Part shown: positions 2,088 through 62,450 of the stretch, piece after piece
How the letters are laid out: each line of letters begins with the position of its first letter
How positions within the stretch are numbered: the stretch's first letter is position 1
Assembly: GCF_027594745.1 (NCBI RefSeq)
Contig: NZ_CP110854.1
Coordinates: forward strand, 988,241 to 1,052,240
Reading direction: 5' to 3'
DNA: 64,000 nucleotides
From: Saprospira grandis
Lineage (GTDB): Bacteria > Bacteroidota > Bacteroidia > Chitinophagales > Saprospiraceae
Position numbers and translations under genes: made by a program
Notes under the pieces: model-generated
Database searches by the model: none
Told to the model about the DNA's origin: nothing
Seen by the model: the letters and a program-made list of their open reading frames with translations, nothing else

Positions 2088-2340
2088 CTGTTTTGGGGCC
2101 TCCTGCCTACGGCAGGCGCTACGTTTCGCAGCTCGCAGGTCTGCTCGGCCCTTCGGCGCAAAGCGCCTCGGTCTGGCCTTCGGCCACTGCTGCACATCGC
2201 TAGGCCAGTCCTCCCTTCGGTCGTCCTCTAGCGCCTCTTTAAGGCTGCTTATTACAGCTCGCTGTTTGCCTTAAATTCCTTTGCTCGGCCTTAATAACTG
2301 CTGCACATCGGTTACTCCCTTTGGTCGTCCTCTAAGGCCC
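2088..2340. repeat. GC-rich composite intergenic hairpin repeat, family copy
   Basis: Contains the shared modules ttttggggcc, gcgctacgtttcgcagctcgc, gtctggccttcggccac and tgctgcacatcgctaggcc. Boundaries are approximate. Confidence 0.7.
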
Positions 2341-2365
2341 TAAACAAGCTGTACTTTTGGACCAA

Positions 2366-2410
2366 CAAAAAGCCCCCGCAGTCAGAGACTGCGGGGGCTT
2401 CCTTTTTGCC
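2366..2410. terminator. Bidirectional rho-independent terminator
   Basis: A perfect 13-bp GC-rich stem (agcccccgcagtc/gactgcgggggct) is flanked by A-runs and T-runs on both strands. It sits between the convergent genes ending at 2075 (+) and 2420 (-). Confidence 0.65.
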
Positions 2411-2419
2411 TTGACTAAC

Positions 2420-3984
2420 TTACCAAAGGCTCCACCATTGCTCCTCATCCTTTTGCTGAGGATCTATGGGGGTTAAGCTTTCTGCCAAACCAGAGCTGCC
2501 CAAATCTACGGCATTTGCTTCTGTTGTGGCTTGTTGTTTTTGGGCCTCATAAGCATATTTTTTGCGGCTAGGCTGAGCAAAATAGGCCTTCCAGGCTTGC
2601 TTGTTTTCTTCCTTGGCCAAAATGCGATCTACTTGCTCACAGAGCGCTTGGCCCTTCTCGGCCTGTACCATACGAACATAGTTCGCAAAACCCTTAATGC
2701 TGGCCAAAATAAATCCTTGGCCCCATTCTGCGGCTTGATAGCCTTTAGTTTCTATGGTATGCAAACAAGCTCTAAATTTCTTCAATGTTTTGCGGTCTAC
2801 AGCCACTTGCTCATTTACGGTAAGGCCCGTTACCTCTTGGCGGCGGCCCTTGCGCATAATCTTGAGCTTTTTGGGGTGAATCACAAAGCCTTCATCTTGA
2901 ATAATCTGCTGGGCCTGCCAAATTATACGGCTAATATTGCTCGTATCATTAGCCGAAAAACTCAGGTCATCGGCATAGCGGCTATAGGTCCAACCTAACT
3001 TTTTGGCTACCCCCTCAAAACGGCGGTCCATGCGGCGGCAAAGCCAGTTGGTAATCGCTGGACTAGTAGGTGCGCCCTGTGGCAAATAGCGCTCTCCCTT
3101 TTGGGCATAATACAACTGTCCGTCAATTTCTACTTGGTCCACCTCGGGCTCTGTAGTTAATAAGGCAAAGATAATAGACTGCTGCTCGGAGTAGCCCAAG
3201 CCCTTAAACATCCCCTTCACTCGAGGATAGGTTACGGTAGGAAAAAAGTCTTTGAGGTCCATATTGATGACCAGCTCTTTTTTCTCATGCAGTTTAGCAT
3301 TACTGACAATAGAGCGCTCTGGCACAAAGCCATGAGCCGCTTCATGCATCTCTAAGCGAGCAAGTACATTCTCTAAGAGCCAGTATTGGGCATTTTTAAG
3401 CATAGGGCGAGGGGCTGAAATCAGGCGTTTCCCTCCTGTTTTCTTGGCCAAATAAAAGCGCTCATAATGCGATACCGTAGAGAGCTTCCGCTGGAAACAA
3501 AGATAGCGCAAACGGCCCACAGAAATCTCCATAGCCTCTGCCAGCTCTTTAATATCTTTAAATGCAGGCAGATTTAAAGCCGCTAATTTTGCTAGATCAG
3601 CTTCTTCTTCACTCAAGCCAGCAGAATAGTCTTTACCCAAAAAGACAATACTCCGTTCTTTCTTTTCTTGCCAAGCCTTAGCGCGGGCTTCTTTCTCTGC
3701 CTTACGGCGCTCCTTGGTCTCCTCTCGGCGAGCCAAGGCATTCGCCATGCGTTTTTTACGCATTTCGGCCAGCATGCGCTCCTTATCTCGGAACATGCGT
3801 TGCTTCTCCATCAGCTCACGCAGCTCTCTTCGGAGAGCGCCCTTCTTTTGGATAATCTCCTCAGAGATTTTTGGAGCCTCTTCAGTGGTATCCCAAAAGC
3901 CGAGGCGTTTCATTTCTTCTAAGATATATTCCTCTTTAGAAGTTTGGCGGATACGGTCATAAATCTGTTGACGGGTCATTCTGT
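2420..3984 (-). CDS. Retron-type reverse transcriptase with an N-terminal K/E/R-rich coiled-coil extension of about 130 aa and a C-terminal extension
   Basis: The RT domain carries the YxxFxxxKKxGGxRxIxxP opening (ERFYLAKKTGGKRLISAPRP), NAxxH (SNAKLH), QGAPTSP, YADD (SRYADDLSF) and the retron-typical VTG motif (RRQEVTGLTV). I place the start at ATG 3984 (MSDHRMTRQQ). The 641-aa ORF to 4345 begins at a TTG and runs through a perfect palindrome, so I treat the upstream part as non-coding. Confidence 0.85.
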
Positions 3985-4348
3985 GGTCAGACATAGGGCG
4001 CAGATTGAGACAAAAAAAAACTACTTTCAATTTGGGAGAACTAAGGCCAAAGCCCAGTTGATCCAAAATTGAAAGTAGCTGCAAAAGAAAAAAGAAGGAG
4101 AGAAGATTTACTTCGTACAATCTTAGAACTAAGAGAATCAACTCCAGCGAACTGCCGTAGGTGCCCCTACTACGTTCCCTACAGAGTCTACGACTCGAAA
4201 CCGCGTAGGGGACGTAGTAGGGGCACCTACGGCAGTTCGCATCATAAAGATTCTTCCTTAGTGAACAGTGAAGAGTAATATCGCTTGAACGCCGAAACAG
4301 CGCTCTTTTTGCAAGACTTTGTCTTCTCTTGATCCTTCTTTTCAATAT
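3985..4348 (-). ncRNA. Candidate structured non-coding RNA leader of the RT, msr/msd-like
   Basis: There is a perfect 29-bp inverted repeat (4147-4175 / 4212-4240; gcgaactgccgtaggtgcccctactacgt) that extends to about 35 bp (ccctac/gtaggg). A second 13-bp stem-loop (4021-4033 / 4066-4078) is followed by a T9 run on the RT strand. An AT-rich promoter-like region lies at 4350-4450. The region is on the same strand as the RT and immediately 5' of it. Confidence 0.4.
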
Positions 4349-4477
4349 CTATATAGAGATGCTTGTCATCCCCATTTGTCTGTTACAATTATAGATATTC
4401 TTTAGCAGCTTGTCAAGTTTTTATTTAAATTTTTTCAAAAAATTATCAAAATAGTGAAGCTTTGGTCCTTTTTGCGG

Positions 4478-4621
4478 TAGACAGGCGGCGAAGCCGCCGC
4501 AGGCCTAGCGATGTGAAAGGGGGCGGCGAAGCCGCAGACCAAGGCCGTCAGGCCGCAGGGCCGAGCGAATAGCGAGCCCTGAAACGTAGCGCCTGCCGAA
4601 GGCAGGAGGCCCCAAAAAAAA
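4478..4621. repeat. GC-rich composite intergenic hairpin repeat
   Basis: Contains ggcggcgaagccgccgcagg, gcagggccgagcgaatagcgagcc, gaaacgtagcgcctgccgaaggcagg and ggccccaaaaaaaa. Confidence 0.7.
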
Positions 4622-4624
4622 TCG

Positions 4625-6292
4625 CTAGATCAGTTTTCCAGTTTTGCGATTATGAGCCATACGAGTAGCTAGGATATGTTCGCAGGGGCCTTTGCGCAAT
4701 TTATTCATTTGAAAATGGTTGCAATTGCATTCGGCTTGGACCATGCGGTCATCGGCATCGATGAGGAGTTGGCATTGGTAATTGCGCTGTTGTCCTTTGA
4801 TCTGTGCCGATAGTCGAGTTTGGCCATTTTGCTGCGACTCTGCCGATAAATTGCTGAGGCGGTTTTGGTCCAAAATCTTGTTGGCTTTTTCCTCCTGTGG
4901 CGAGGCAAAGCGGAGCAATTTCATATCGAGTGGTTCCCGATGCAATTCCCGCAGGCGGTAAACGCCTAGAGTAGGATCAAAAATCACTCGGCCCGCTTGG
5001 GTATAGGCTTGCAAGGAAGCGCTGACGATATCCGTACCTAACTCTAGGCGTTCGGCCAAGCTATCTACCGACTCGAAATAAGTGCTTTTGAGGGCCTCAA
5101 AAACGGTTTGTTTAGTCCAATCGTCTACCTCTAAGCGAGGGGCGAGCAGATCAAAATTGCCCGCTCTAGACCAATCGTTATCGGTCCAGCCAGAAAGACC
5201 CAAAGTAAAGACCATATCTCCCTCTAGTTGGGCCTCATAAAAAGAAGGCAAACCAGAGCCGAGGAAGCTAACCGTAAATTTTTTGGCTTGTGGAATCAGG
5301 CGCTCCAAGATGAGCAAACGGCGGCGGCCCCAAATGCGGACCTCCTCTGCTTTTGGCCCATGATAAATAGAGCGGCGACAGATAATTTCTTTATTCCAAG
5401 GTTCTACCAGCACTTTAACGGGCTGCCCGGGGCGAAGCTGAAAGCGCAAAGAACGAGGGCCATGCGTTTCCTTAAAGCGGCGTAAAAGCTGGCAAATGCT
5501 ATGAATGTCCATGGGATGCAAATCAAAGCGAATGAGTGGCATCGTCATGGCAGAGCTCACTTGGAGGAAGCCGCGGACCCAGCTTTCGGGTAGGTCAATT
5601 TTGACCTCCTTATATAAATCTTGGTCCTCTGTTTGGATTTCAAAGCCAGAAGGATCTACCCGAAAATCGGTTTCCTTATAATTCCGAATCTTTTGAAACT
5701 CATTATAAAGGGCTGCAGAGTAATCAATATTGGTTGTTCCGCAAGAAAACTCATCAATATTCTTAAAGACATTATAGCCACAGCTAAGCTTACCATAAGT
5801 AGATTCATCTTGGCTAAAGCACTCAAAGAAAATGCTATCGGGATGGGTCGTGATGACGGGATCTAGGACGATCCAAGCATCAAAATCCTTTTTATAGAGG
5901 TAATTAAAATACTCTCTTTGTTTTTTGTAGAAATGCTGCATTACGCCTCGTTCCTGCTCTTCTACCCCAGCCAATTCTACCGAAATATCTTCGATACGTT
6001 GTTTAATATTGGCCTCATCTCCAGCAATTTCGCCAAGGTATTGGGCCAACCAAACCTCTTCCTGCTCCTTGGCCCAGGCCAAATAGGCAGATTTATCACG
6101 AGGTTTGAAGCGAAGATCAGAAACCACTACGGCATTCAAGGCAGAGATGGCTTCTCTAAAGGCAATTTTCTTATGCAATTGGCCCACAAAAAAAGTAGGC
6201 TCGCGCAAACTATCGGGGGCAAAGGACATGGCCGTTTGCCCAGCTTTATTCTTCACAGAGGAAGTTCCTCCATACTTATAATTAAATAACAT
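4625..6292 (-). CDS. SWIM zinc-finger domain protein, YehQ-like
   Basis: The 555-aa protein has a C-terminal CxCx(n)CxH signature (CNCNHFQMNKLRKGPCEHILA). Only 11 bp separate it from the upstream WGR gene, suggesting an operon. Confidence 0.7.
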   Translation of the reverse strand: MLFNYKYGGTSSVKNKAGQTAMSFAPDSLREPTFFVGQLHKKIAFREAISALNAVVVSDLRFKPRDKSAYLAWAKEQEEVWLAQYLGEIAGDEANIKQRIEDISVELAGVEEQERGVMQHFYKKQREYFNYLYKKDFDAWIVLDPVITTHPDSIFFECFSQDESTYGKLSCGYNVFKNIDEFSCGTTNIDYSAALYNEFQKIRNYKETDFRVDPSGFEIQTEDQDLYKEVKIDLPESWVRGFLQVSSAMTMPLIRFDLHPMDIHSICQLLRRFKETHGPRSLRFQLRPGQPVKVLVEPWNKEIICRRSIYHGPKAEEVRIWGRRRLLILERLIPQAKKFTVSFLGSGLPSFYEAQLEGDMVFTLGLSGWTDNDWSRAGNFDLLAPRLEVDDWTKQTVFEALKSTYFESVDSLAERLELGTDIVSASLQAYTQAGRVIFDPTLGVYRLRELHREPLDMKLLRFASPQEEKANKILDQNRLSNLSAESQQNGQTRLSAQIKGQQRNYQCQLLIDADDRMVQAECNCNHFQMNKLRKGPCEHILATRMAHNRKTGKLI

Positions 6293-9480: not shown

Positions 9481-9713
9481 AAGGATAAAATGGGCTTTTT
9501 AGGGCCTTGGTCTTAATTTGTAGCTCATATTATCGCTTTTTGATGACATTAGCGAGTTTTTTAAGCAAAAAAAGGGGATTTTTTCTTACTGCTTAGAAAA
9601 AGAAAGGCAAAAAATCGAAAGGCTGCTATATTTAGCTTCTAAGCGCCTATAGTTAAACTGTAGTAGGGTCGGTCCAGAAAAAAAAGATAGTACATTCTAG
9701 ATACGCCCGGAGG

Positions 9714-10030
9714 AGTTTTGCATTTGCAAATTAGCTCTGAACAACTGTATAGAGCTGTTTTGCATTTGCAGATTAGCTCCGGGGATTCCCCAGAGCTGTT
9801 TTGCAGTTGCAGATTAGCTCTGAACAACTGTATAGAGCCGTTCTGCAGTTGCAGATTAGCTCTGAACAACTGTATAGAGCTGTTCTGCAGTTGCAGATTA
9901 GCTCCGGGGATTCCCCAGAGCCGTTTTGCAGTTGCAGATTGCCTCTGAACAACTGTATAGAGCCGTTTTGCAGTTGCAGATTAGCTCTGGGGATTCCCTA
10001 GGGCCGTTTGTAAGCTGCAGCAGTGCCCTA
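9714..10030. repeat. Tandem array of about 7.5 units with a period of about 42 bp: a 23-bp core plus two alternating 19-bp inserts
   Basis: The core gttttgcagttgcagattagctc alternates with tgaacaactgtatagagcy or cggggattccccagagcy. The inserts are not unique, so this is not a CRISPR array. Confidence 0.8.
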
Positions 10031-10094
10031 AGCTCTGGTTTTTGGCCTATTTGTGGCTGAAGAGCTAGGCGATACGGTTGTTTCTCTCTAAAAA

Positions 10095-10362
10095 AACCGC
10101 CAACAGCTCCCCTGAGGGATTCCTTAGGGAATCCCGAGGAGGGGCGGGTGGGCGGGGTCGTGAAAACGAATGAGGAGCGCAGCGACGAATACCGCTTTTT
10201 GCGAAGGCCCGCAGGGCCGCTGAGGGCCCAGCGCTGCGGAGTGGGTGGCCGAAGGCCAGACCGAAGCAGGCGAAGCCTGCGCAGGGCCGAGCGAGCAGCG
10301 AGCCCCGCAGCATAGCGGCGGCCGCCCGCCCTTTTTGGGGCGGCCGCGGGCCCCAAAAACAT
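10095..10362. repeat. GC-rich composite intergenic hairpin repeat
   Basis: Contains the agggattccttagggaatccc palindrome, gtggccgaaggccagaccgaagc, gcagggccgagcgagcagcgagcc and ggccccaaaaac. Confidence 0.7.
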
Positions 10363-23004: not shown

Positions 23005-23230
23005 ATTGGCCTAGCGATGTGCAGCAGTGCGGCGAAGCCGCAGACCCAGGCGGCGAAGCCGCCGCAGGGCCGAGCAGACCTGCGAGCTGCGAAACGTAGC
23101 GCCTGCCGTAGGCAGGAGGCCCCAAAACAGCAGCGAGCTGCGGAACGACAACAAGGACTTTAGTCCGCAGTTCGACGACCGAAGGGAGTAACCGCCGACG
23201 ACCGAAGGGAGGCGGAGGCCCCAAAACAGC
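23005..23230. repeat. GC-rich composite intergenic hairpin repeat
   Basis: Contains cctagcgatgtgcagcagtgcggcgaagccgcagacc, gcagggccgagcagacctgcgagctgcgaaacgtagcgcctgccgtaggcaggaggccccaaaacagc. It is nearly identical to the copy at 58058..58250. Confidence 0.75.
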
Positions 23231-50875: not shown

Positions 50876-51013
50876 AAAACATAAATTTTATAGATTAAAT
50901 ATAGAAATTAGACTAAAGCCCTGCTTTTCGGCAAGTTTTCTTATATTTGCCCACTGTTAAAGTAAGATACAAAACTGTTGTCCATCATTTTATTTCATAC
51001 AAAAATTGTCAGA

Positions 51014-52708: not shown

Positions 52709-52729
52709 TTGCTTCTTTAAGCTTTAATT

Positions 52730-52766
52730 TTAAGGGCCCGCTGCTGTAGCAGCGGGCCCTTTTTAT
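52730..52766 (+). terminator. Rho-independent terminator
   Basis: The hairpin gggcccgctgc-tgta-gcagcgggccc is followed by a T5 run. Confidence 0.7.
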
Positions 52767-52784
52767 CATGATAAATACCTAATT

Positions 52785-53255: not shown

Positions 53256-54033
53256 GCTATTTCTATTGCTACTTTTGGCCCTCCCACTAAAGGCCCAAAT
53301 CTTAAATGCCGATGCACTGGCCCCAAAACTAGACTCTAGCCGAGCCTTTCATTTATTTGGCCAAGGAAATCTAAGCATCACAAAATGAAATTATACCCCC
53401 ATCTATAGCTTTACTGGCCAAGCCGAATGGGCCTACCGCTCTGGCCAACACCGCCTAATGCATAGCAATTATTACCGCCTGCTCCGATCGGCTGGAAAAA
53501 ACACCCTAAATAGCGGCTATACCCATCTACGCTACCGCTTAGAACCCGAAGAAGGCCTGCAATATGAACTTTTTGCCCAATTTCAAGGCGATCAAATTCG
53601 GGGAATGCAAGAGCGCTATCTCTTGGGCGGAAACCTGCGCTTAAAGCTTTGGCAAAAAGAGAAAACGAACCTCTTTTTGGGCCTAGGGGGCATGTATGAA
53701 TCAGAAAAATGGACCTATTCCGCTGTGGAGGATAGCCTGCTCCCCGCCGATATTAGTGATTTTTATACCCAATATGCTAAGCTCAATTTTTACTTGAGCT
53801 ACTGGGAGGATTTTAACCCAAAACTACGCACTCAATTGGTCCTTTATCTACAAACAAGGCCCGATAGCGAATGGCAAAAGGCCCGCATTTTTGTTTCTAA
53901 TGAATGGAGCTGGAAAATAGCCAAACATTGGGCGCTGGCCTTTGGAGCCCAACTCAATTATGAGCTAGCCCCGCCTGTTCCCCTTGCTAAGTTTTATTAT
54001 ACTACCTCTTGGGCCCTAAAGTATAGCTGGTAG
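53191..54033 (+). pseudogene. DUF2490-like secreted protein interrupted by a single in-frame TGA (53386-53388)
   Basis: ORFs 53191..53388 and 53458..54033 are in the same frame. The sequence between them is stop-free and reads ..SITK*NYTPIYSFTGQAEWAYRSGQHRLMHSNYY.. It is a paralog of 22126..22884. The 5' end overlaps the GNAT gene by about 60 nt, so the true start is uncertain. Confidence 0.5.
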
Positions 54034-54042
54034 CTAACGGTC

Positions 54043-54190
54043 CTACAGGCGGCAAAGCCGCCGCAGGCTGAGGGGCTGTAGCAGGGCCGCCGAAGGCGGC
54101 AGACCAAAGCCCGAAGGGCTGCAGGGCCGAGCAGACCTGCGAGCTGCGCAATGGCCCGACCCGAATGCAATGAGGGGCAGCCCCAAAAAA
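54043..54190. repeat. GC-rich composite intergenic hairpin repeat
   Basis: Nearly identical to the copy at 43690..43838. Confidence 0.75.
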
Positions 54191-54220
54191 AAGACGACCT
54201 AAAATAGATCGTCTAAAAGA

Positions 54221-54748
54221 TTAGTAGAGTTGTTCTAGCCCTTTTAAAGGCCCCATTTGCTCCTCTATCTCATTTTCCCAACTTTGCTCCAAGCGTCGGC
54301 CCAGATGCAAAAAGAGCTTTCGGTCTTTGGGCGTCCACTCGCAGCGGGCGCCCTTGTTGCTGTTCAGAACCCGCTCTTCAGATAGTGCTGTGTACAAAAT
54401 ATGTTCATTTTCATCCATCTCGAAGTGTAGGGCCTGCAACAGCCGCTCTTTGTCCTCAAAATGGCCCTGAATGCGCAGCAAGGCCTGCCCTCGAATTTTC
54501 TTGAGCTTGATTTTTTCAATCTTTAACCCCAATTCCTCATGATGAAAAGGGAGCTTGCTCTCTAGCCGAGCCACAAACTCTTGGGCTTGGGCCTCTGCCT
54601 TTTCGGGATATTGAAGATGAACAAACTCCATTTTGAAGCTTTGCTTTTTAAAATCGAGTTCCAAAAGGGCCTCTTCGGCCAAAACTGGGCTTTGCATTTG
54701 GAACAAAAGCGCCGTGAAAAAAAGGAGTTCGTTGAGTAAAATAGCCAT
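54221..54748 (-). CDS. Secreted hypothetical protein
   Basis: A signal peptide (MAILLNELLFFTALLFQMQSPVLA) precedes a 175-aa protein. Confidence 0.55.
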   Translation of the reverse strand: MAILLNELLFFTALLFQMQSPVLAEEALLELDFKKQSFKMEFVHLQYPEKAEAQAQEFVARLESKLPFHHEELGLKIEKIKLKKIRGQALLRIQGHFEDKERLLQALHFEMDENEHILYTALSEERVLNSNKGARCEWTPKDRKLFLHLGRRLEQSWENEIEEQMGPLKGLEQLY

Positions 54749-54753
54749 GCTGC

Positions 54754-55209
54754 TTACTTTTTTGATTCATAAATAGAGATCCAAGCCTGAGGGGTCATTT
54801 TTTGGGCCAATTCTTCAATAAGGGGCCAAGGAATATGCCCCGCTTTTTTCCAACGAATACAGCTTTTCCCCATATTTAGCTTGTATTTGCTGCCTGCGGC
54901 ATAGGCTGCTGTCCACCAATTGAGTAGCTCCTCATCGGCATAAAGCCCAAAGTGATATAGGGCCAAATGACTTTTTTGAGCTGCCAAACTGATGAAGGGC
55001 AAGGGCTGCCCCGGCTTCGCATGATAGCCCTGCGGATAACGGCTCAAAGGAACCTCAAAATGCAACATTCGCCCATCAAAACGCTCTGTAAAGCCAGTAG
55101 GTAGCTGCTGCCGAAGTAATTCGGCTAGTTTTTCAAGCGCTTGGGCCTTTTCTTCAGGCAATTGCGCTAAATAGTCGCTGAAATTCATAGAAAACTTTTT
55201 TTTGAACAA
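54754..55209 (-). CDS. Hypothetical protein, possibly DUF1801/YdhG-like
   Basis: A 151-aa ORF lying 5 bp upstream of the previous gene, so likely an operon. The family assignment is tentative. Confidence 0.5.
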   Translation of the reverse strand: MFKKKFSMNFSDYLAQLPEEKAQALEKLAELLRQQLPTGFTERFDGRMLHFEVPLSRYPQGYHAKPGQPLPFISLAAQKSHLALYHFGLYADEELLNWWTAAYAAGSKYKLNMGKSCIRWKKAGHIPWPLIEELAQKMTPQAWISIYESKK

Positions 55210-55255: not shown

Positions 55256-56708
55256 ATGAACAAGATACCGAATAAAGGCCAAGATCAGCAGCAAATTTTA
55301 GCGCAATTAAAGGCCTTTAAGGGACAAGATTTGCCCTGGCAAGCTGGAAAAATCTTCGCCTATATTTACCAAACCACCCCCGAGGCTAAGGCGGTGGCCG
55401 AGGCGGCTTACCTTTCTTTTTTGCCCGAAAATGGCTTGGACCCCACGGCTTTTCCCTCCCTTTTGCATTTGGAGCAGCAGATTATTGGACAGCTAGCGCC
55501 TTTGTTGGGCGGTAATGAGGAGGTTAAGGGTAATTGTACCTCTGGCGGGACCGAAAGCGTGATTTTGGCGGTAAAGGCGGCCCGAGATTATGCCCGAGCC
55601 AAGTATCCCAATCAAAAAGAGTTTGAAATTTTGGTCCCTTCTACGGCACATCCTTGCTTTTATAAGGCGGCTCATTATTTAAATATTGGCATTCAAGCTA
55701 TAGATGTAGACCCGCAAACGCAGCGCCTAAAGGTGGCCGATATGCGGGCCGCTATTAGCGAAAAGACGATTTTGTTGGTGGGCTCTGCGCCTTCTTATGC
55801 GCATGGCGTGATGGACCCCATCGCCGAGCTTTCTGATTTGGCCCTAGAAAAAGATTTGCTTTTGCATGTAGATGCTTGCGTGGGCGGTATGTATTTGCCC
55901 TTTTTTGCGGCAGTTGGGCCATGAGGTTCCGCCTTTTGGCTTTGAGTTGCCAGGCGTGACCTCTATTTCTTGCGATTTGCATAAGTTTGGCTATGTGCCC
56001 AAGGGCTGCTCTACGATTTTGTACCGCAATAAGGAGCTCCGCCAACATCAGATTTTTAGTTGCTCGCAATGGCCGGGCTATACGGTGGTCAATCCCACAG
56101 TTTTATCGAGTAAAACAGGGGCGCCTATGGCGGCTGCTTGGGCCATGTTTCAATATATGGGCCTAGAGGGCTACCAAAATGCGGTGGCAGATTGCCAGGC
56201 GGCTAGAGATGCTGTGATTGCAGCTTTGGAGCAGTTGCCTAGCTTAGCACTGATTGGCCAGCCCGATATGAGTTTGCTGGCTTTTGCGAGTAAAGATGAG
56301 GATCTCAGCATTTTTGATTTGGCCGATCAGCTCAATGAAAAGGGCTGGTATGTGCAAGTTCAATTGGCGAGCCCGCATTCTCCTGCAGCTATTCATTTGA
56401 GCATTAGCCATTTTAATTGCCCACATATTCCAAGTTTTGTCGCTGATTTGCAGGAAACTGTAGCCGAGCTCATGAGTAATCCTGTAGAAGAAAATGAGCT
56501 ATTAGCTGCCCTCGACCATTCGATGCTGGCCCTTTTGATGGAAGATTTTGATCCCGCTATGTTGGGCCAATTTCAAGAATTGATGGGCCTAGAGTCTGCA
56601 GAAGGTGGCTTACCGGCCGATATGGGCGCCGTCAATCAATTGCTCAATGTTCTTTCGGCCAAGCAACGAGAAGATGTTTTGCTGGCCTTTATGAATGAGT
56701 TGATTTAA
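55256..56708 (+). pseudogene. PLP-dependent group II decarboxylase-like protein (glutamate decarboxylase / sphinganine-phosphate lyase family), frameshifted
   Basis: Two overlapping ORFs (55256..55924 and 55872..56708) in different frames encode the N-terminal (GGTESVILAVKAAR) and C-terminal (SISCDLHKFGY, the PLP-lysine motif) halves. The shift is near a T6 run at about 55895. Confidence 0.7.
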
Positions 56709-56709: not shown

Positions 56710-56985
56710 TTTTGGGGCCTGCCGCCTTCGGCGGCCGGGCTATTGCGCAGCTCGCAAGTCTGCTCGGCCCTGCGCGGGCTTTGCCCGCTGGCTCGGCGGC
56801 TTTGCCGCCCTGCTGCATATCCCTAGGCCGCTCATCCGATGAGCATTTTTTGCAGCTGTCGCCTTTGGCCCTAAAACGGCCCCTTTTAAGCGGTATTCCT
56901 CGCTTCGCTCCTCATTCCTTAATATTAACCCGCCCACCCTCCCCTCCAATGGATTCCCTAAGGAATCCATTGGGGGAGTTTGGGC
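56710..56985. repeat. GC-rich composite intergenic hairpin repeat
   Basis: Contains ttttggggcctgccgccttcggcggcc, ttgcgcagctcgcaagtctgctcggccctgcgcgggctttgcccgc and the tggattccctaaggaatcca palindrome. Confidence 0.7.
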
Positions 56986-57029
56986 CAGTATTAAAAATGC
57001 CGCTCCTTTTTAGGAGCGGCATTTTTTCT

Positions 57030-57558: not shown

Positions 57559-58023
57559 TTACTTCTTTTTTTTGCGAAAATATTTGGGATGCACCAGCAA
57601 GAGGCCAAAAGAAACGCCATCCTCTTTTTCCTGTTTGGCATGATGAGCGCCATGGGCACGCAAAATCCCTCTAGAATACCAGCCATCCAATTGTTTAAAC
57701 CATTTGAAGCGTTGGTGTATATATACGTCATGGATCAGGAAATAGATCAGCCCATAAATGGAAATGCCCACGCCCACAAAAAAGAGCAGAAAATAGCCCG
57801 GTACAGCCGAGCCAATAATATAAGAGGCCGCACTAGGGACCGCAAAAACCAAAAAGAAGAGATCATTTTTCTCAAAAAAGCCTTCTACCTCATGAGGCTT
57901 ATGATGGTCTTCATGCCAAATCCATAAGAGGCCGTGCATGAGGTACTTATGGGCCAACCAGGCCACAAATTCCATGGCGATGACGCTAGCAAGCGTAATT
58001 AAGGTATAGAGTAAAATCTGCAT
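57559..58023 (-). CDS. crtZ: Beta-carotene 3-hydroxylase (CrtZ-like, fatty acid hydroxylase superfamily)
   Basis: A 154-aa membrane protein with His boxes (HKYLMHG; HEDHH; HDVYIHQR; HGAHH). It is adjacent to other carotenoid genes. Confidence 0.7.
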   Translation of the reverse strand: MQILLYTLITLASVIAMEFVAWLAHKYLMHGLLWIWHEDHHKPHEVEGFFEKNDLFFLVFAVPSAASYIIGSAVPGYFLLFFVGVGISIYGLIYFLIHDVYIHQRFKWFKQLDGWYSRGILRAHGAHHAKQEKEDGVSFGLLLVHPKYFRKKKK

Positions 58024-58057: not shown

Positions 58058-58250
58058 CTCCAAAAGCGGGCGAAGCCCGCTACGGCCTAGCGATGTGCAG
58101 CAGTGGCCGAAGGCCAGACCCAGGCGGCGAAGCCGCCGCAGGGCCGAGCGAACAGCGAGCTGCGAAACGACAACAAGGACTTTAGTCCGCAGTTCGACGA
58201 CCGAAGGGAGTAACCGCCGACGACCGAAGGGAGGCGGAGGCCCCAAAAAA
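58058..58250. repeat. GC-rich composite intergenic hairpin repeat, inserted between the carotenoid genes
   Basis: Nearly identical to the copy at 23005..23230. Confidence 0.75.
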
Positions 58251-58254: not shown

Positions 58255-58923
58255 CTACATCAATAAAAAGAGGTAGATCCAGAGAAAGAAAACGAACTGC
58301 CAAAGAAACAAAAATTCGAGGGCGGGGTTGCGCCTAGGCCCCAAAAAATGGCCAAAAAAGAGCTGTAGACCAAAGGCGGCCAGCCACCAAACCGCATAAT
58401 TTTGCCAAGGAGCCACCAGTAGGCTGTTGTAGGGCGTATTGCCCCAGCTCCACATATCGTAACGGACTGCGGCGGGCTCAATAAAGAGGTCGAGACTGAC
58501 CATGAGGCTGGCCCCCAGCAGGCTGCGCAGCCAAAGCGGGCGGCTGGCGAAAAAGCGCAAAATGATCGAGCTAGAAGCATAGACCAGCATGGCCCAATTG
58601 AGGCCGATCATGAAAGGCGTGCCGCCCAACTGAGGGCCCAAAGTAGCGCCATAGCTATATTCTCCGAAGATGAGCCCCGTTTGCACCCCCGCCAATTCTA
58701 AAAACCAGCCGCCCCAATAGACCGCAAAAAGGGCCAAATAGAGTCGTTTGTCTTGCTGTTTTTCGGCCCAAAGGCAAAGGCCAAAAGTGGCTAATAAATT
58801 GAGTGGCGTGAGCCGCATAAATTCGGGATGCAAGGGCCAACTGACGCCCAGCAAGCCCACAGCATAGAGGCAGCAGAGCAGAATGAGCACCCAGTTTTGC
58901 TTTTGCGAATAGCTTAAGGACAT
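58255..58923 (-). CDS. Polytopic membrane protein of the carotenoid cluster (lycopene cyclase-domain or CruF-like hydratase)
   Basis: A 222-aa protein with 6-7 TM helices. Its stop abuts the CrtI-family gene start, and its position fits carotenoid clusters of Bacteroidota. The exact family is uncertain. Confidence 0.5.
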   Translation of the reverse strand: MSLSYSQKQNWVLILLCCLYAVGLLGVSWPLHPEFMRLTPLNLLATFGLCLWAEKQQDKRLYLALFAVYWGGWFLELAGVQTGLIFGEYSYGATLGPQLGGTPFMIGLNWAMLVYASSSIILRFFASRPLWLRSLLGASLMVSLDLFIEPAAVRYDMWSWGNTPYNSLLVAPWQNYAVWWLAAFGLQLFFGHFLGPRRNPALEFLFLWQFVFFLWIYLFLLM

Positions 58924-60408
58924 CTATTTTAGGTTTTTAATGAGGTCTTCTGTGGCCAGCTTGGCCGATAAAAGGGCCAGCGGAATCCCGCCCCCAGGAT
59001 GCACGCTGCCGCCCACAAAATAAAGGCCCGACAGCTGCCTAGAAAAGTTGGGATGACGGAAAAAAGCCGCCATGCTGTTGTTGGAGGAAGTGCCATATAA
59101 AGACCCCAAATGCGATTGGGTTTTCGCTTGAATGAGGGCGGGAGAAAGTAGCTCTTCCTCGACAATATGGGGTTGAACGGGACGGCCCAAAATGCGCTCT
59201 AGCTTTTGGAGAATCCGCTTTTTACTTTGGGCAATTAAGTCCTCCCAGTCTTGACCATCAAGTTGAGGGGCATTGATCATCACAAACCAATTTTCATGGC
59301 CCAAGGGGGCATCGCTTTGCTCTACTTTGGAGCTGATGTGAATGTAGACCGTAGGATCTTCATAAAGGCTTTTTTCCTCAAATAGTTGGCGGAACTCCTC
59401 TGGATAATTATCACTGAAAAAGATATTATGCACATCTAGTTCGGGAAAACTTTGGTCCATCCCCCAATAAAAAATGAGGGCCGAAGAAGACTTCGGTTGC
59501 TCCAAAATGCGCTTAGGCCTAGGCTGTTTGGGCAGCAAACGGTCGTAGGCAAAAAAGATATCCATATTGCAAACGACTTGATCGAAGACTAGTTCTTTTT
59601 GGCCAATTCTGATGCCTTTTACGGCTTTGTTTTGGACCAAAATCTCCTCTACTTTTTGTCCATAATGAAATTTCACCCCTAAATGTTCGGCCAAACGAAC
59701 CAGCGAATGGCTAATTTCCTTCATACCGCCCTTGGGCATAAAGGCCCCAAAACCCTGTTCCAGATGCGGAATCAGACTCATGATACCTGGGGTTTTATAA
59801 GGACTAGAGCCATTATAAGTCGCATAGCGATTAAAGAGTTGGACCATTTTGGGATGCTGCTTTAGGCGCTTTTTATTCTCTTGGTCCAAAGAGCGATGCA
59901 GCCCTAGCCAAGGCATAGCCAAGACCCCCTTAAAGGTTTTCCAGCGCAAATAAGTGCTGAGTCGATGCAGTGATTTTTCGAGGAAAATGGGGGCCGTAGT
60001 TTCGTATCTAAAACGGGCCCAAGCCAGATAATCCTTAAGCGCTTGGGCGGGAAAGCCCAGTTTTTCTTCTACCTCTTGGCCATATTTATGAAGATCGGCA
60101 TAGGCGGAAATAGACTGCCCATCTTCCCAAAAGTACTTACAAACCGTATCTAGGCGATGATAATCAAAGCCGAAATCTTTGGGGTTTTCGCCAGCTAGGG
60201 CAAAGAGTTCTTCTACATATTGGGGCATGGTAAAGAGGCTGGGCCCCGCATCAAAGCGGTAATCGCCTACTTGCAAATTGGAGAGTTTGCCGCCGGGGTA
60301 ACTATTGGCCTCAAAGACCGCTACCCTATGGCCAGCGGCGGCTAGACGTACGGCCGCCCCAATGCCGCCAATGCCGGCGCCAATAATGGCAATATTTTGT
60401 TGATTCAT
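58924..60408 (-). CDS. Phytoene desaturase-family FAD oxidoreductase (CrtI/CrtD-like)
   Basis: The N-terminal Rossmann motif is IAIIGAGIGGIGAAVRLAAAGHRVAVFEAN..GGK. The length is about 494 aa, and the C-terminal motif is GLYFVGGSVHPGGGIP. Confidence 0.85.
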   Translation of the reverse strand: MNQQNIAIIGAGIGGIGAAVRLAAAGHRVAVFEANSYPGGKLSNLQVGDYRFDAGPSLFTMPQYVEELFALAGENPKDFGFDYHRLDTVCKYFWEDGQSISAYADLHKYGQEVEEKLGFPAQALKDYLAWARFRYETTAPIFLEKSLHRLSTYLRWKTFKGVLAMPWLGLHRSLDQENKKRLKQHPKMVQLFNRYATYNGSSPYKTPGIMSLIPHLEQGFGAFMPKGGMKEISHSLVRLAEHLGVKFHYGQKVEEILVQNKAVKGIRIGQKELVFDQVVCNMDIFFAYDRLLPKQPRPKRILEQPKSSSALIFYWGMDQSFPELDVHNIFFSDNYPEEFRQLFEEKSLYEDPTVYIHISSKVEQSDAPLGHENWFVMINAPQLDGQDWEDLIAQSKKRILQKLERILGRPVQPHIVEEELLSPALIQAKTQSHLGSLYGTSSNNSMAAFFRHPNFSRQLSGLYFVGGSVHPGGGIPLALLSAKLATEDLIKNLK

Positions 60409-61311
60409 TTAGCTGTAAATTTTTTGGGCCATTCGGTAAGTGTTTGCATGGGCCTCAATGATGTAGCGCAGTTGGGGCGAATAGCCGCCGCCCATACTGA
60501 CCGCTACGGGAACGCCCGCCTTTTGGCAGCAGCTAAACACAAATTGGTCTCGCTGAGCGCAGGCATTTAAGCTTAGGCCCAAACGGCCCAACTTATCAGA
60601 GGCCAAGACATCTACGCCAGAGAGATAAAGGACCATATCTGGCCGAAGGCTTTCGAGCAAAGCGGGTAAATAATCGGCTAAAACCTGCAAATAAGGGCCG
60701 TCATCCATCAGATCGGGCAGGGCAATATCAAGGTCCGACCGCTCTTTGCGGAAAGGATAATTGGCCGCGGCATGCATAGAAAAGGTAAAAACCCTGGGCT
60801 CATTTTCGAAGATTTTGGCGCTGCCATTGCCTTGATGCACATCCAAATCGACAATGAGAATTTGCTGGGCCAGGCCTTGGTCCAAGAGATAATTGGCGGC
60901 AATCGCAAAGTCGTTGAGCAGACAAAAGCCCTCTCCATGGCTGGCATAGGCATGATGCGTGCCGCCTGCAATATTGAGCGAAACCCCATATTCTTGGGCC
61001 GCCAAGCAGCAATCAATGGTCCCTTGAGCAATCACTTTAGAGCGTTGGACCAATTTATCGGACATGGGAAAACCAATTTTACGGGCAGCTTTGGCCGAAA
61101 TCGTTTGCTCTTTTAGGGAGTCCCAATAATCTTTGCTATGGGTGCGCAAAATCCATTCTTCGGCAATGGGTTGAGGGTGAAAAAAATTCTCTTCTTCCAG
61201 ACAACCTTCATAAATGAGCTGCTGGGCCAATAGATCGTACTTGATCATAGGAAAGCGGTGGCCTTGGGGCAACTCGTAGCGGTAGATGGGCGAAAAAGCA
61301 ACTTTTAACAT
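60409..61311 (-). CDS. Histone deacetylase-family (AcuC/HDAC-like) deacetylase
   Basis: The HDAC motifs GGTHHAYASHGEGFCLLND and DLDVHQGNG are present. 300 aa. Confidence 0.85.
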   Translation of the reverse strand: MLKVAFSPIYRYELPQGHRFPMIKYDLLAQQLIYEGCLEEENFFHPQPIAEEWILRTHSKDYWDSLKEQTISAKAARKIGFPMSDKLVQRSKVIAQGTIDCCLAAQEYGVSLNIAGGTHHAYASHGEGFCLLNDFAIAANYLLDQGLAQQILIVDLDVHQGNGSAKIFENEPRVFTFSMHAAANYPFRKERSDLDIALPDLMDDGPYLQVLADYLPALLESLRPDMVLYLSGVDVLASDKLGRLGLSLNACAQRDQFVFSCCQKAGVPVAVSMGGGYSPQLRYIIEAHANTYRMAQKIYS

Positions 61312-61391
61312 TTCATTGATTCTTTGTTCTTAGAAAAGCAATTTAGGAAAAAAGTTTTGAGCCCTTGCTAATTTAATTTTTTAGGGGGGTG

Positions 61392-61560
61392 TTTTGGGGC
61401 CCGCGGCCAGCAAGCTGGCCGCCGCTATGCTGCGGGGCTCACAAGTCTGTTCGGCCCTGCAGCCGCCTGCGGCGGCTTTGGTCTGGCCTTCGGCCACCCC
61501 TCCGCAGCGCTGGGCCGCTCAGCGGTCTTTTTTCTTTGGGCCCTCTTCTTCGGCGGCTGA
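61392..61560. repeat. GC-rich composite intergenic hairpin repeat
   Basis: Nearly identical to the copy at 46260..46440. Confidence 0.75.
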
Positions 61561-61564
61561 ATTT

Positions 61565-62245
61565 AGGGCGTAGCCGCCTAGCTGGAGCTAAGAAAAAACT
61601 AGGTCGAACTAGGAATAGCTTAGGTCAAGCTAGCCAAACCTTAGGTTGAGCTAACTAAACCTTAGCTGGAGCTAGTAGCCGCTTAGGTCGAGCTAGGAAA
61701 GTATTAGCTGGAGCTAAGGAAAAGCTAGGTCGAGCTAGGAATAGCTTAGGTTGAGCTAGCCAAACCCTAGGTTGAGCTAGTGGCGCCTTAGGTCGAGCTA
61801 GGAATAGCTTAGGTTGAGCTAGCCAAATCCTAGGTTGAGCTAGTGGCGCCTTAGGTCGAGCTAAGAAAGTACTAGCTGGAGCTAACAAACAGCTAGGTCG
61901 AGCTAGGAATAGCTTAAGTCAAGCTAGCCAAACCCTAGGTTGAGCTAGTGGCGCCTTAGGTCGAGCTAAGAAAGTACTAGCTGGAGCTAACAAACAGCTA
62001 GGTCGAGCTAGGAATAGCTTAAGTCAAGCTAGCCAAACCCTAGGTTGAGCTAGTGGCGCCTTAGGTCGAGCTAACCAAACCCTAGCTGGAGCTAGTAGCC
62101 GCTTAGGTCGAGCTAGGAAAGTATTAACTCGAGCTAAGAAAAAGCTAGCTCGAGCTAGTAGCCGCTTAGGTTGAGCTAGGAAAACCCTAGCTCGAGCTAA
62201 CAAAAAGTTAGCTCATTGGCCCTTAGCAATAAGTTCACTAAGTCA
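61565..62245. repeat. Array of about 32 tandem units with a 21-bp period, built from a conserved 12-bp near-palindromic core plus a variable 9-mer
   Basis: The core TAGGTYGAGCTA / TAGCTSGAGCTA (cf. the perfect palindrome TAGCTCGAGCTA) recurs every 21 bp. The 9-nt inserts vary (ggaatagct, gccaaaccc, gtggcgcct, agaaagtac, acaaacagc ...). Higher-order repeats of about 126 bp are also visible. Confidence 0.85.
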
Positions 62246-62287
62246 GTACTTTAACTTATTAGTAACAATTGGCCCCTTAGGCGGTTT

Positions 62288-62450
62288 AGCAGGCGGCGAA
62301 GCCGCCGCAGGCCTAGCGATGCGGCGGGGTGGCCCGCAGGGCCAGACCGAAGGCGAAACGAAGTGTAGCCTGAAGGGCCGAGCAGACCTGCGAGCCCCAA
62401 AGCGTAGCGCCGACGAGCGCAGCGAGGCGGAGGCCCCAAAAAAACAGAAT
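62288..62450. repeat. GC-rich composite intergenic hairpin repeat
   Basis: Contains ggcggcgaagccgccgcaggcctagcgatgcggcggggtggcccgcagggccagaccgaaggcgaaacgaagtgtagcctgaagggccgagcagacctgcgagcc. Confidence 0.7.

What the first reader, a model, noticed from the sequence alone, without database searches (positions are those of the whole stretch)
2088..62450. Extremely dense family of composite GC-rich hairpin repeats (at least 22 copies in 64 kb, about 6% of the window) in nearly every intergenic gap
Copies range from 140 to 280 bp each and occur in both orientations. Copy starts are approximately 2088, 4478, 10095, 11698, 14878, 16345, 18758, 23005, 26590, 26890, 33230, 35800, 41748, 43690, 46260, 47335, 50698, 54043, 56710, 58058, 61392 and 62288. 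Each copy is built from a shared vocabulary of short GC stems closed by GAA/GNRA-like loops (ggcggc-gaa-gccgcc; ggcc-gaa-ggcc; gcgaaacg) plus the linkers gcagggccgagcagacctgcgagc and tgcacatcgctaggcc, with ttttggggcc caps. Some pairs are nearly identical (23005 and 58058; 43690 and 54043; 46260 and 61392), implying recent mobility or gene conversion. One copy sits inside a carotenoid operon, between crtZ and the cyclase-like gene. They generate many spurious ORFs on both strands. Possible roles include REP/BIME-like mRNA stabilisers, transcription insulators or non-autonomous mobile elements (MITE-like). The density is remarkable.
Basis: seen in the sequence. Interest (0 to 1): 0.55.

Follow-up and report, generated by a model that had tools for sequence, protein, structure and literature searches.

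The report
Structured GC-rich intergenic repeat family in Saprospira
The window, from a Saprospira bacterium, carries 22 copies of a 120-170-base folded repeat found in many Bacteroidota lineages; the copies stay at the same sites between species but swap internal hairpins, which suggests an old REP-like repeat that works as folded single-stranded DNA and appears undescribed.

Summary
All 22 listed copies exist, and there is one truncated extra copy. The core units cover 4.6% of the window and occupy 20 of 29 intergenic gaps of 100 nt or more.

Each copy is one unit with a fixed layout, not a loose set of hairpins. The layout is a T-run, GG, a terminal helix (P1), a second long-range helix (P3), an almost invariant 20-nt loop (GCTCGCTnTtCGCTCGGCCC), a helix P4, and three or four variable hairpins.

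P1 and P3 covary strongly, both in Saprospira and in 61 distinct copies from other lineages (Phaeodactylibacter, Saprospiraceae and Lewinellaceae MAGs, metagenomes of 34-59% GC). These pairs are almost strictly Watson-Crick. Nothing in Rfam or the searched literature matches.

Recent mobility is not supported. No empty site appeared in 31 orthologous flank comparisons at 85-94% identity. Orthologous copies instead differ by whole-module swaps, which points to gene conversion.

The T-run end lies next to a gene end, a median of 16 nt from stop codons, whichever way the gene runs.

My best reading is a REP/REPIN/attC-like element that folds as single-stranded DNA (confidence 0.45). An RNA role in untranslated regions remains possible. 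The partner enzyme and the function are unknown.

The parts
2087..2206 (+). Full copy, subfamily A. Cap 12 nt after the stop of gene 1341-2075. Degenerate X-like modules follow to about 2350, then a terminator at 2370.
   Evidence: CM 114.9 bits; alignment; terminator position
4502..4621 (-). Full copy, subfamily A. Cap 4 nt after the stop of gene 4625-6292(-). Extra hairpin 4 at 4478-4500.
   Evidence: CM 106.7 bits
10225..10362 (-). Full copy, subfamily C. Cap faces the start of gene 10464(+). Module Y (10100-10204) and a tandem array (9710-10042) lie on the far side.
   Evidence: CM 87.7 bits
11694..11837 (+). Full copy, subfamily B. The cap starts within 2 nt of the stop of gene 10464-11696, and the copy fills the gap to the next gene.
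   Evidence: CM 75.6 bits
14902..15032 (-). Full copy. Cap 4 nt after the stop of gene 15036-16286(-). Hairpin 4 at 14878-14900.
   Evidence: CM 88.7 bits
16343..16464 (+). Full copy, subfamily A. Cap 58 nt upstream of the start of gene 15036-16286(-).
   Evidence: CM 108.7 bits
18780..18923 (-). Full copy, subfamily C. Cap 10 nt after the stop of gene 18933-21935(-). A bidirectional terminator lies beyond the far end.
   Evidence: CM 101.1 bits
23008..23131 (-). Full copy, subfamily A; the best match to the model.
   Evidence: CM 121.8 bits; DNA fold reproduces P1, P3, P4 and the hairpins
23133..23230 (-). Truncated copy (cap, hairpin 1, module X, start of the core up to GCTCGC) fused to the cap of the copy at 23008-23131. 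Its cap lies 8 nt after the stop of gene 23238-23948(-).
   Evidence: CM 17.9 bits
26589..26712 (+). Full copy, subfamily A, in a divergent gap, facing the copy at 26891-27061.
   Evidence: CM 112.6 bits; orthologue in L175
26891..27061 (-). Full copy with module X inserted between hairpin 1 and P3. The orthologue in L175 lacks the core and has its modules in a different order.
   Evidence: CM 93.1 bits
33371..33506 (-). Full copy, subfamily C. Its cap abuts the T-tract of the terminator of gene 33578-35230(-). Module Y (33218-33322) lies on the far side.
   Evidence: CM 91.2 bits
35797..35927 (+). Full copy, subfamily A.
   Evidence: CM 110.3 bits
41744..41885 (+). Full copy, subfamily B. Cap 20 nt from the start codon of gene 40629-41726(-).
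   Evidence: CM 95.9 bits
43711..43840 (-). Full copy, subfamily B. Cap faces the start of gene 43963(+). A tandem array (43232-43612) lies on the far side.
   Evidence: CM 104.9 bits
46256..46394 (+). Full copy, subfamily C. Cap 15 nt after the stop of gene 44565-46241.
   Evidence: CM 95.1 bits
47377..47500 (-). Full copy. Its cap abuts the terminator T-tract of gene 47557-48006(-). The orthologue in strain DSM 2844 has the other spacer type.
   Evidence: CM 114.7 bits
50698..50839 (+). Full copy, subfamily B, in a divergent gap. The spacer type differs in the DSM 2844 orthologue.
   Evidence: CM 89.3 bits
54066..54192 (-). Full copy, subfamily B. Hairpins 1 and 2 are replaced outright in the DSM 2844 orthologue.
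   Evidence: CM 93.3 bits
56706..56829 (+). Full copy. The T-run starts directly after the TAA stop of gene 55872-56708. A terminator immediately follows the 3' end, and module Y lies at about 56900-57000.
   Evidence: CM 101.5 bits
58084..58252 (-). Full copy with module X, between the PF04240 carotenoid gene (58255-58923) and the crtZ-like gene (57559-58023).
   Evidence: CM 102.2 bits
61388..61516 (+). Full copy, subfamily C. A 21-nt-period tandem array starts at its 3' end.
   Evidence: CM 103 bits
62310..62445 (-). Full copy. Cap 68 nt upstream of the start of gene 62512(+). Hairpin 4 at 62288-62309.
   Evidence: CM 100.6 bits

Best explanation
These are copies of an old family of dispersed intergenic repeats whose unit is a folded single strand, most likely single-stranded DNA. 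In that respect it works like REP/REPIN elements or integron attC sites.

Architecture, read on the strand that carries the T-run first:
- Tn-GG, then the 5' strand of P1 (5 bp), then variable hairpin 1.
- A CGCTAYG junction, then the 5' strand of P3 (4-9 bp).
- An invariant loop, CTCGC-N5/6-GCTC.
- P4 (GGCCC paired with GGGTC), which in Saprospira encloses variable hairpin 2.
- Variable hairpin 3, the 3' strand of P3, a CAYCGCT junction, the 3' strand of P1, and often AA.

Shown here:
- The architecture and its covariation.
- The conservation of the loop across lineages.
- Fixed orthologous positions.
- Evolution by whole-module replacement.
- The position of the cap end next to gene ends.

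Inferred:
- A conserved host-encoded or rarely encoded protein recognises the fold through its helices and reads the invariant loop and junctions sequence-specifically. The obvious candidate is a single-strand-specific nuclease or recombinase such as a Y1/HUH enzyme.
- That protein once amplified the element, separately in each lineage.
- In Saprospira the copies are now essentially sedentary. Frequent short-tract gene conversion among an extrapolated 1,000-plus copies keeps them uniform and shuffles their modules.
- Because many copies lie between a stop codon and the terminator, they are also transcribed. They may secondarily affect the stability of mRNA ends.
For: Census: 22 copies against 0 expected.

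Covariation:
- In 69 Saprospira and Phaeodactylibacter backbones aligned without reference to pairing, P1 is 95% paired and P3 91%. The covariation score is 0.365 against 0.143 in shuffles, and 0 of 500 shuffles reach it.
- In 61 distinct copies from other lineages, P1 is 95% paired and P3 96%. All 5 P1 pairs and 3 of 4 P3 pairs show changes on both sides, with up to 4 pair types. The score is 0.478 against 0.150 (0 of 500), and slid controls reach at most 0.097.

The helices vary while the loops stay fixed. The 20-nt GCTCGCTnTtCGCTCGGCCC is nearly invariant in hosts of 34-59% GC. This is the pattern expected for structure-specific recognition and the opposite of transposase-bound terminal repeats.

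G-U pairs are almost absent from P1 and P3 (1-3 cells of about 500-900). In my judgement an RNA helix that covaries this much would carry more G-U pairs than that. Hairpin G-T and A-C counts are balanced in the diverse set, 27 against 21.

Orientation relative to gene direction is close to random. The cap-side gene end is a stop in 37 cases and a start in 23, and 72 against 62 in metagenome loci. This argues against one fixed cis-acting mRNA role.

No neighbouring gene family recurs among 89 neighbours, so the family is dispersed and is not a regulator of one gene.

Each genome has only a few P1 types, consistent with amplification within lineages.

Fixed sites and module swaps.

On the opposite strand the junction reads [G/A]TAGCG just 5' of hairpin 1. 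This resembles the GT[AG]G foot of REPs, some families of which have two extra bases before the stem (PMC3733652). [quoted passage not shown]
Against: - No cognate enzyme was found. About 1 Mb of element-bearing loci held a single Y1 gene (in L106), and its own repeat is a different GTAG double-foot REP.
- No empty site, target duplication or excision footprint was seen, so mobility is inferred only from copy number and spread.
- P4 carries a conserved G-T wobble (GU 40, GC 13 at one pair). Saprospira hairpins show more G-T than A-C (60 against 28). Both would also fit an RNA transcribed from the T-run-first strand.
- Single-sequence folding energies are not better than shuffles for the minimal forms (z from +0.4 to -1.3, and -2.2 to -3.7 for one Saprospira copy). 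The structure therefore rests on covariation alone.
- The alignment used was fitted to the model.
Confidence: 0.45

Rival explanations
1. The element acts as structured RNA inside mRNA untranslated regions. In the 3' UTR the T-run-first strand would protect the message from 3' exonucleases or modulate termination and ribosome release just after the stop codon. In the opposite orientation it would form a structured 5' end followed by an A-rich leader.
For: In Saprospira the cap lies a median of 16 nt from stop codons, and about 20 of 37 such copies lie within 16 nt.

In the window, 5 of 12 stop-adjacent copies sit between the stop codon and a canonical hairpin-plus-T terminator, so they must be transcribed.

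One copy sits inside a likely carotenoid operon.

There is a conserved G-U wobble in P4 and an excess of G-T over A-C in Saprospira hairpins (60 against 28).

REPs are reported to lie mostly downstream of coding regions, and many are thought to act as RNA (PMC3733652).
Against: - Orientation relative to the adjacent gene is nearly random (37:23 and 72:62), so the two classes would place different strands in the mRNA.
- G-U pairs are almost absent from the two covarying helices.
- The T-run precedes the structure, so neither strand is an intrinsic terminator.
- No promoter or terminator frames the unit as a separate gene.
- Nothing in Rfam matches.
Confidence: 0.25
2. It is a conventional MITE: a deletion derivative of an insertion sequence, moved as double-stranded DNA by a DDE transposase that binds the terminal inverted repeats (TTTTGG..CC / GG..CCAAAA). 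The 'covariation' would then only reflect matched ends.
For: - T-run/GG at the 5' end and GGCC plus AA(AA) at the 3' end form an imperfect inverted terminus.
- Copy number is high, and each genome has its own few subfamilies.
- Short-read assemblies break at copies.
Against: - The termini (P1) are the most variable part and the internal loops the most conserved.
- A second internal helix, P3, covaries independently of P1.
- No target-site duplication, no empty site in 31 comparisons and no full-length partner carrying these ends in about 1 Mb of loci.
- Positions are stable across about 15% sequence divergence.
Confidence: 0.1
3. It is a chromosomal protein-binding or architectural site in double-stranded or cruciform DNA, for example for gyrase, a nucleoid protein or a response-regulator-like protein bound to the two GCTCG direct repeats spaced 11-12 bp apart. 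It would act as a topological or transcriptional insulator between genes.
For: - The invariant core contains two GCTCG repeats one helical turn apart.
- Copies sit at gene boundaries whichever way the gene runs.
- Positions are conserved, and the backbone is more conserved (0.91-0.96) than other intergenic DNA (0.77).
- From my own knowledge, E. coli BIMEs bind gyrase and IHF.
Against: - Long-range complementarity (P1, P3) with compensatory change is not needed for binding duplex DNA.
- Density differs enormously between related lineages, from one per 3 kb in Saprospira to single copies per 5-14 kb locus elsewhere. That is unlike an essential architectural site.
Confidence: 0.1

Closest known systems
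REP / BIME elements and REPINs (RAYT-associated repetitive extragenic palindromes)
   Same: - Extragenic, GC-rich, very high copy number, both orientations.
- Often lie just downstream of stop codons.
- Stems keep pairing through compensatory change.
- Mosaic clusters with variable linkers.
- From my own knowledge of the REPIN literature, positions are stable between strains.
- An [G/A]TAG-like tag lies 2 nt 5' of a hairpin on one strand (PMC3733652, PMC6006769).
   Different: - The unit is a 100-170-nt multi-helix fold with two long-range helices and an invariant 20-nt loop. It is not a 20-40-nt hairpin or a simple doublet of two inverted REPs.
- No RAYT was found next to copies.
- The same core is conserved across several families of Bacteroidota.
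Integron attC sites (including Vibrio cholerae repeats)
   Same: - A 57-141-nt imperfect palindrome that acts as folded single-stranded DNA.
- Two helices separated by unpaired conserved bases, bulged bases, and a highly variable distal structure.
- Sequence varies while structure is kept.
- Sits directly after the stop codon of the adjacent gene.
   Different: - There are no RYYYAAC / GTTRRRY core sites; the ends are TnGG... / ...AA.
- There is no cassette array and no integrase context.
- Flanking genes are ordinary syntenic chromosomal genes in both orientations.
Pneumococcal BOX elements, and ERIC and Correia elements (structured modular intergenic repeats)
   Same: - Modular composition with variable numbers and kinds of modules.
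- Ends that pair to give a long stem.
- Intergenic, co-transcribed with neighbouring genes, and without an encoded transposase.
   Different: - No sequence relationship.
- Those families are confined to one genus or family and lack an invariant loop shared across deep lineages.
- Correia and ERIC have clear terminal inverted repeats and, for Correia, TA duplications.
IS200/IS605-derived non-autonomous elements (PATEs) and their subterminal hairpins
   Same: - Single-strand folding would be needed for recognition.
- A fixed short flank on one side (here a T-run) with no target duplication.
- Hairpins near both ends.
   Different: - There is no strand bias within the window (10 + against 12 -), so no sign of lagging-strand targeting.
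- The 5' and 3' ends pair with each other.
- No TnpA or TnpB partner was seen, and no Rfam IS605-type RNA match was found.

Membership tests
REP/BIME (RAYT-associated) | Unit is a 20-40-nt imperfect palindrome (a single stem-loop) | tested here: not met
   The unit is 120-171 nt in the window and 84-110 nt in minimal forms. It has P1, P3, P4 and 1-4 hairpins.
REP/BIME (RAYT-associated) | Conserved GT[AG]G tetranucleotide at the 5' foot of the hairpin | tested here: inconclusive
   The junction CGCTAYG reads [G/A]TAGCG on the other strand, 2-3 nt 5' of hairpin 1. It is GTAG in subfamily A, ATAG in C and ATGG in B. It resembles the tag but is not identical to it.
REP/BIME (RAYT-associated) | A RAYT (Y1 transposase) gene flanked by copies (a REPtron) in the same genome | not testable with these tools
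   Whole genomes could not be scanned. In the window plus about 1 Mb of fetched loci, the only HUH/Y1-motif ORF is in L106, and its own repeat is a different GTAG double-foot REP.
REP/BIME (RAYT-associated) | Extragenic, high copy number, both orientations | tested here: met
   22 copies in 64 kb, all intergenic, 10 on the + strand and 12 on the - strand.
MITE | Conserved terminal inverted repeats flanked by a target-site duplication | tested here: not met
   The ends pair (P1), but they are the least conserved part. The flanks are a T-run on the 5' side and an A-rich stretch on the 3' side, not a direct duplication.
MITE | Insertion polymorphism (empty sites) between related genomes | tested here: not met
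   0 empty sites in 31 flank-pair matches. Every orthologous gap is 122-205 nt, that is, occupied.
MITE | A related autonomous element with the same ends | tested here: inconclusive
   None was seen among partial or split hits or in the loci scanned, but only a small part of any genome was available.
Integron attC | R''/R' core sites RYYYAAC ... GTTRRRY | tested here: not met
   The consensus ends are tttGG-[P1] ... [P1']-AA, with no AAC/GTT cores.
Integron attC | Arrays of promoterless cassettes next to an integron integrase | tested here: not met
   Flanking genes are syntenic housekeeping genes in both orientations.
Intrinsic (Rho-independent) terminator | GC-rich hairpin followed by a U-run on the transcribed strand | tested here: not met
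   The T-run precedes the structure on one strand and an A-run follows it on the other. Separate canonical terminators lie before or after copies.
Any Rfam RNA family | Match to a curated covariance model | tested here: not met
   Only two tRNA-His genes pass the gathering thresholds. In E-value mode on two copies the best matches have E of 4 or more and score far below their thresholds.

The most novel reading that the evidence does not exclude
The unit is a new class of functional structured nucleic acid shared by many Bacteroidota lineages. It could be the recombination or cleavage substrate of a still unidentified single-strand-specific enzyme system, or a catalytic or protein-recruiting RNA such as a new self-cleaving ribozyme. 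In either case the active centre would be the invariant 20-nt loop with the conserved CGCTAYG and CAYCGCT junctions, and the element would have been amplified to more than 1,000 copies in Saprospira.
Probability: 0.15. Interest if true: 0.85.

Novelty: new variant of a known kind. Interest (0 to 1): 0.62.

Why it matters
A fold with strong compensatory variation and a 20-nt loop that stays invariant across hosts of 34-59% GC is the signature of a specific molecular partner, and nothing in Rfam or the searched literature describes it.

In Saprospira the family takes up nearly 5% of the sequence examined and marks most gene boundaries. The surrounding repeat modules coincide with synteny breakpoints between relatives. 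Short-read assemblies break at the copies.

It offers a tractable system for three questions:
- How REP-like elements are recognised and kept uniform.
- Whether Bacteroidota have their own single-strand DNA (or RNA) processing enzyme for such elements.
- How hairpin modules are exchanged between fixed loci.

In practice, a covariance model of the unit would improve annotation by removing spurious ORFs, and it would help explain fragmented assemblies of Saprospiraceae genomes.

Tried and rejected
- **Coding hypothesis.** The 5- and 6-nt spacer variants shift the frame between copies, so no reading frame is conserved (reading).
- **Intrinsic terminator.** The T-run is on the wrong side, and separate terminators are present.
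- **Known RNA family.** No Rfam match.
- **Phage origin.** Only one weak copy in 2.9 million viral contigs.
- **Regulator of one gene family.** No neighbouring family recurs.
- **RAYT adjacency.** A motif scan of all fetched loci found only the L106 gene, whose cognate REP is different.
- **Outward promoter at the cap.** No consistent Bacteroidetes -7/-33 motifs lie between the cap and the start codons.
- **Thermodynamic support.** DNA folding z-scores are unimpressive, especially for minimal forms, and RNA energies show no strand preference. Structure claims therefore rest on covariation.
- **Loop-based strand assignment.** The bias toward GNA triloops on one strand is strong in Saprospira but absent in other lineages, so it was not used as general evidence.
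- **An ad hoc regex parser for P1 and P3** misregistered the helices. It was discarded in favour of fixed-offset backbones and the covariance model.
- **More distant relatives carried no copies.** L124 has none of the element and L125 is not syntenic, so neither could be used for orthologous comparison.
- **Literature searches** for Saprospira or Saprospiraceae repeats found nothing relevant.

Full report
**Observation.** Direct-repeat search, motif search, a profile HMM and a covariance model all agree. The window holds 22 full copies of one family and one truncated copy at 23133-23230.
- The core motif GCTCGCN{5,6}GCTCGGCCCT occurs 19 times against 0 in shuffles.
- Core units are 120-171 nt and total 2,967 nt, or 4.6% of the window. 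They fill 20 of 29 intergenic gaps of 100 nt or more.
- Ten copies are on the + strand and twelve on the - strand.
- Rfam finds only two tRNA-His genes in the window.

**Organism and spread.** The window is a Saprospira genome but not S. grandis DSM 2844. Positions 46967-54813 align to that strain at 94% identity. The same family occurs in:
- S. grandis DSM 2844 and Phaeodactylibacter luteus;
- MAGs labelled Saprospiraceae, Lewinellaceae, 'Bacteroidota' and 'Flavobacteriales';
- 102 of 120 metagenome loci recovered with the core pattern, with host GC of 34-59%.

Only one weak copy was found in 2.9 million viral contigs. Single matches in high-GC genomes are chance hits; none was detected by the profile.

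**Anatomy.** Read on the strand that begins with the T-run, every copy has the same order:
1. Tn-GG.
2. The 5' strand of P1 (GGCCT, GGCCC or GGCTG in Saprospira).
3. Variable hairpin 1.
4. The junction CGCTAYGTT (TCGGGC in subfamily B).
5. The 5' strand of P3: the four bases before CTCGC.
6. The loop CTCGC-spacer-GCTC.
7. P4, GGCCC paired with GGGTC. In Saprospira it encloses variable hairpin 2; in minimal forms it is closed by a tetraloop.
8. Variable hairpin 3.
9. The 3' strand of P3.
10. The junction CAYCGCT.
11. The 3' strand of P1, often followed by AA.

Accessory pieces in Saprospira are a fourth hairpin, module X (inserted after hairpin 1) and a separate repeat, module Y.

**Structure.** RNAalifold on the window copies recovered the terminal helix with compensatory changes.
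- On 69 backbone sequences cut at fixed offsets and aligned without gaps, P1 is 95% paired and P3 91%. The covariation score is 0.365 against 0.143 +/- 0.011 in shuffles (0 of 500), and slid controls are clearly lower.
- A covariance model built from the window copies found 64 copies in non-Saprospira loci.
- On those 61 distinct sequences, P1 is 95% paired and P3 96%. All five P1 pairs and three of four P3 pairs change on both sides, with up to four pair types. The score is 0.478 against 0.150 (0 of 500), and slid controls reach at most 0.097.
- That second alignment is fitted to the model. The first one is not, and it gives the same answer.
- P3 pairings seen include GCAG/CTGC, GGGG/CCCC, AGGG/CCCT, GCGG/CCGC, ACGG/CCGT, GTGG/CCAC and GTAG/CTAC.
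- P1 pairings include GGCCT/AGGCC, GGCCC/GGGCC, GGCTG/CAGCC, GCGCC/GGCGC, GCATCA/TGATGC, GCGTA/TACGC, CTGTG/CACAG and GGACC/GGTCC.
- Between the helices, the 20-nt GCTCGCTnTtCGCTCGGCCC is nearly invariant.
- Folding energies alone are not convincing.

**DNA or RNA?** The evidence is mixed, but it leans towards DNA.
- G-U pairs are almost absent from the two covarying helices.
- Hairpin stems in the diverse set carry similar numbers of G-T and A-C mismatches, 27 against 21.
- Orientation relative to the neighbouring gene is close to random.
- Against this, P4 keeps a G-T wobble, and Saprospira hairpins show 60 G-T against 28 A-C.
- Many copies lie between a stop codon and a terminator and must be transcribed.
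- Saprospira hairpin loops are mostly triloops closed by C-G: TTC, TGC and TTT, which read GAA, GCA and AAA on the other strand, and never in the opposite sense. From my own knowledge, C-GNA-G is a very stable DNA mini-hairpin. This bias is not seen elsewhere.

**Position.** The cap end is the gene-proximal end.
- In 65 Saprospira copies the cap lies a median of 16 nt from a stop codon (37 cases) or 72 nt from a start codon (23 cases). The far end lies 155 and 228 nt away.
- In metagenome loci the cap is the nearer end in 79 of 97 cases.
- Of 12 stop-adjacent copies in the window, five lie upstream of a canonical terminator and three start at the T-tract of a terminator.
- No neighbouring gene family recurs.

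**Evolution.** Four related sequences overlap the window: L009 (94%), and L122, L163 and L175 (about 85%).
- Every comparable copy is at the same site, with 0 empty sites in 31 flank-pair matches.
- Orthologous copies differ by whole modules. Hairpin 2 is replaced in at least six comparisons. The spacer flips between the ancestral 5-nt type and a Saprospira-specific 6-nt type (AGGTCT) in three. Hairpin 1 is replaced or changed by compensatory pairs in several.
- The replacement modules belong to types seen in other copies, so short-tract gene conversion is the simplest cause.
- Identity between orthologous elements is bimodal. It is either 0.91-0.96 or 0.74-0.87, against 0.85-0.86 for genes and 0.77 for other intergenic DNA.
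- Synteny breaks in L163 and L175 coincide with repeat modules.
- One locus (26891-27061 against L175) shows the modules in a different order.

**Partner enzyme.** None was found. A scan for HUH...Y motifs over all element-bearing loci found one RAYT-like gene, in L106. It carries, and is followed by, its own canonical GTAG double-foot REP. Its closeness to one copy of our element is therefore probably coincidental. Published surveys report Bacteroidetes-specific RAYT subclasses flanked by 'atypical secondary structures' (PMC6006769) and REP families with a GTAG tag two bases from the stem (PMC3733652). The [G/A]TAGCG junction of this element is reminiscent of that tag but is not proof. No paper in the library describes repeats in Saprospira or Saprospiraceae.

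**Verdict.** The 'REP/BIME-like' label is a fair analogy, but membership is not established. The unit is a much larger, multi-helix fold with an invariant loop, conserved well beyond this genus. Recent mobility is not supported, and gene conversion among fixed copies is.
- The most likely mechanism is recognition of a folded single strand (probably DNA) by an unidentified conserved protein, with possible secondary effects on the mRNAs that carry it (confidence 0.45).
- An RNA-level role has confidence 0.25.
- The MITE and architectural-site readings have about 0.1 each.

The estimate of more than 1,000 copies per genome is extrapolated from 27 copies in 78 kb (the window plus L122) and is not measured.

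Noticed in passing
window 61515-62297; 43232-43612; 9710-10042: Three tandem-repeat arrays (periods of 21 nt, 43 nt and 83/42 nt) each lie on the far (3') side of a copy. The 21-nt array of about 37 units begins at the last base of the copy at 61388-61516.
   Followed up: no
window 10100-10204, 33218-33322, about 56900-57000 (inverted): A second repeat family ('module Y': CCCCTGAGGGATTCCTTAGGGAATCCCGAGGAGGGG...) lies about 20-50 nt from the far end of three copies. In L163 a synteny break joins the homologues of window positions about 56947 and about 9682; the first lies inside a Y module and the second about 400 nt from another (10100-10204).
   Followed up: partly
window 23133-23230, 26963-27058, 58153-58248; also 2200-2340; L175:1030-1140, L054, L184: 'Module X' (CGGTTACTCCCTTYGGTCGTCGAACTGC...CTTGTTGTCG) appears either inserted after hairpin 1 or following CATCG in place of the 3' end. 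The 23131-23226 and 58153-58248 copies are 99% identical. In L175 the orthologue of 26891-27061 has the modules in a different order and lacks the core.
   Followed up: partly
window 46499-46573 and 46680-46754 (-): Two identical tRNA-His(GTG) genes lie within a 181-nt direct duplication (133 nt at 95% identity).
   Followed up: no
window 55256-55924 and 55872-56708 (+): Two overlapping ORFs both match the PLP-dependent decarboxylase family (N- and C-terminal parts). This suggests a frameshifted gene or a sequencing error near 55900. L163 also lacks about 250 nt corresponding to 54859-55110.
   Followed up: no
L106:5913-6559 (MAG labelled Flavobacteriales, 39% GC): A RAYT-like Y1 transposase gene (DHLH...WQ...YVKNNP) contains, and is followed by, a GTAGAGACGGAATATATTCCGTCTCTAC 'double-foot' REP. 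A minimal copy of the element studied here lies 55 nt upstream of it, directly after a TGA stop.
   Followed up: partly
L001, L123, L126 (short-read Logan contigs): Contigs of 1.4-3.1 kb that carry window genes appear to break at copies of the repeat. L001 and L123 end inside copies by profile match (weak hits, E 0.001-0.07); L126 is inferred only from its extent relative to the window. This suggests short-read assemblies of these genomes fragment at the family.
   Followed up: partly
window 57559-58023 (-): The crtZ-like ORF has no Pfam hit at E <= 0.001 although it shows clear hydroxylase His motifs. It lies in a cluster on the same strand with PF04240 (58255-58923), a CrtD/phytoene-desaturase family gene (58924-60408) and a histone-deacetylase-family gene (60409-61311).
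   Followed up: partly
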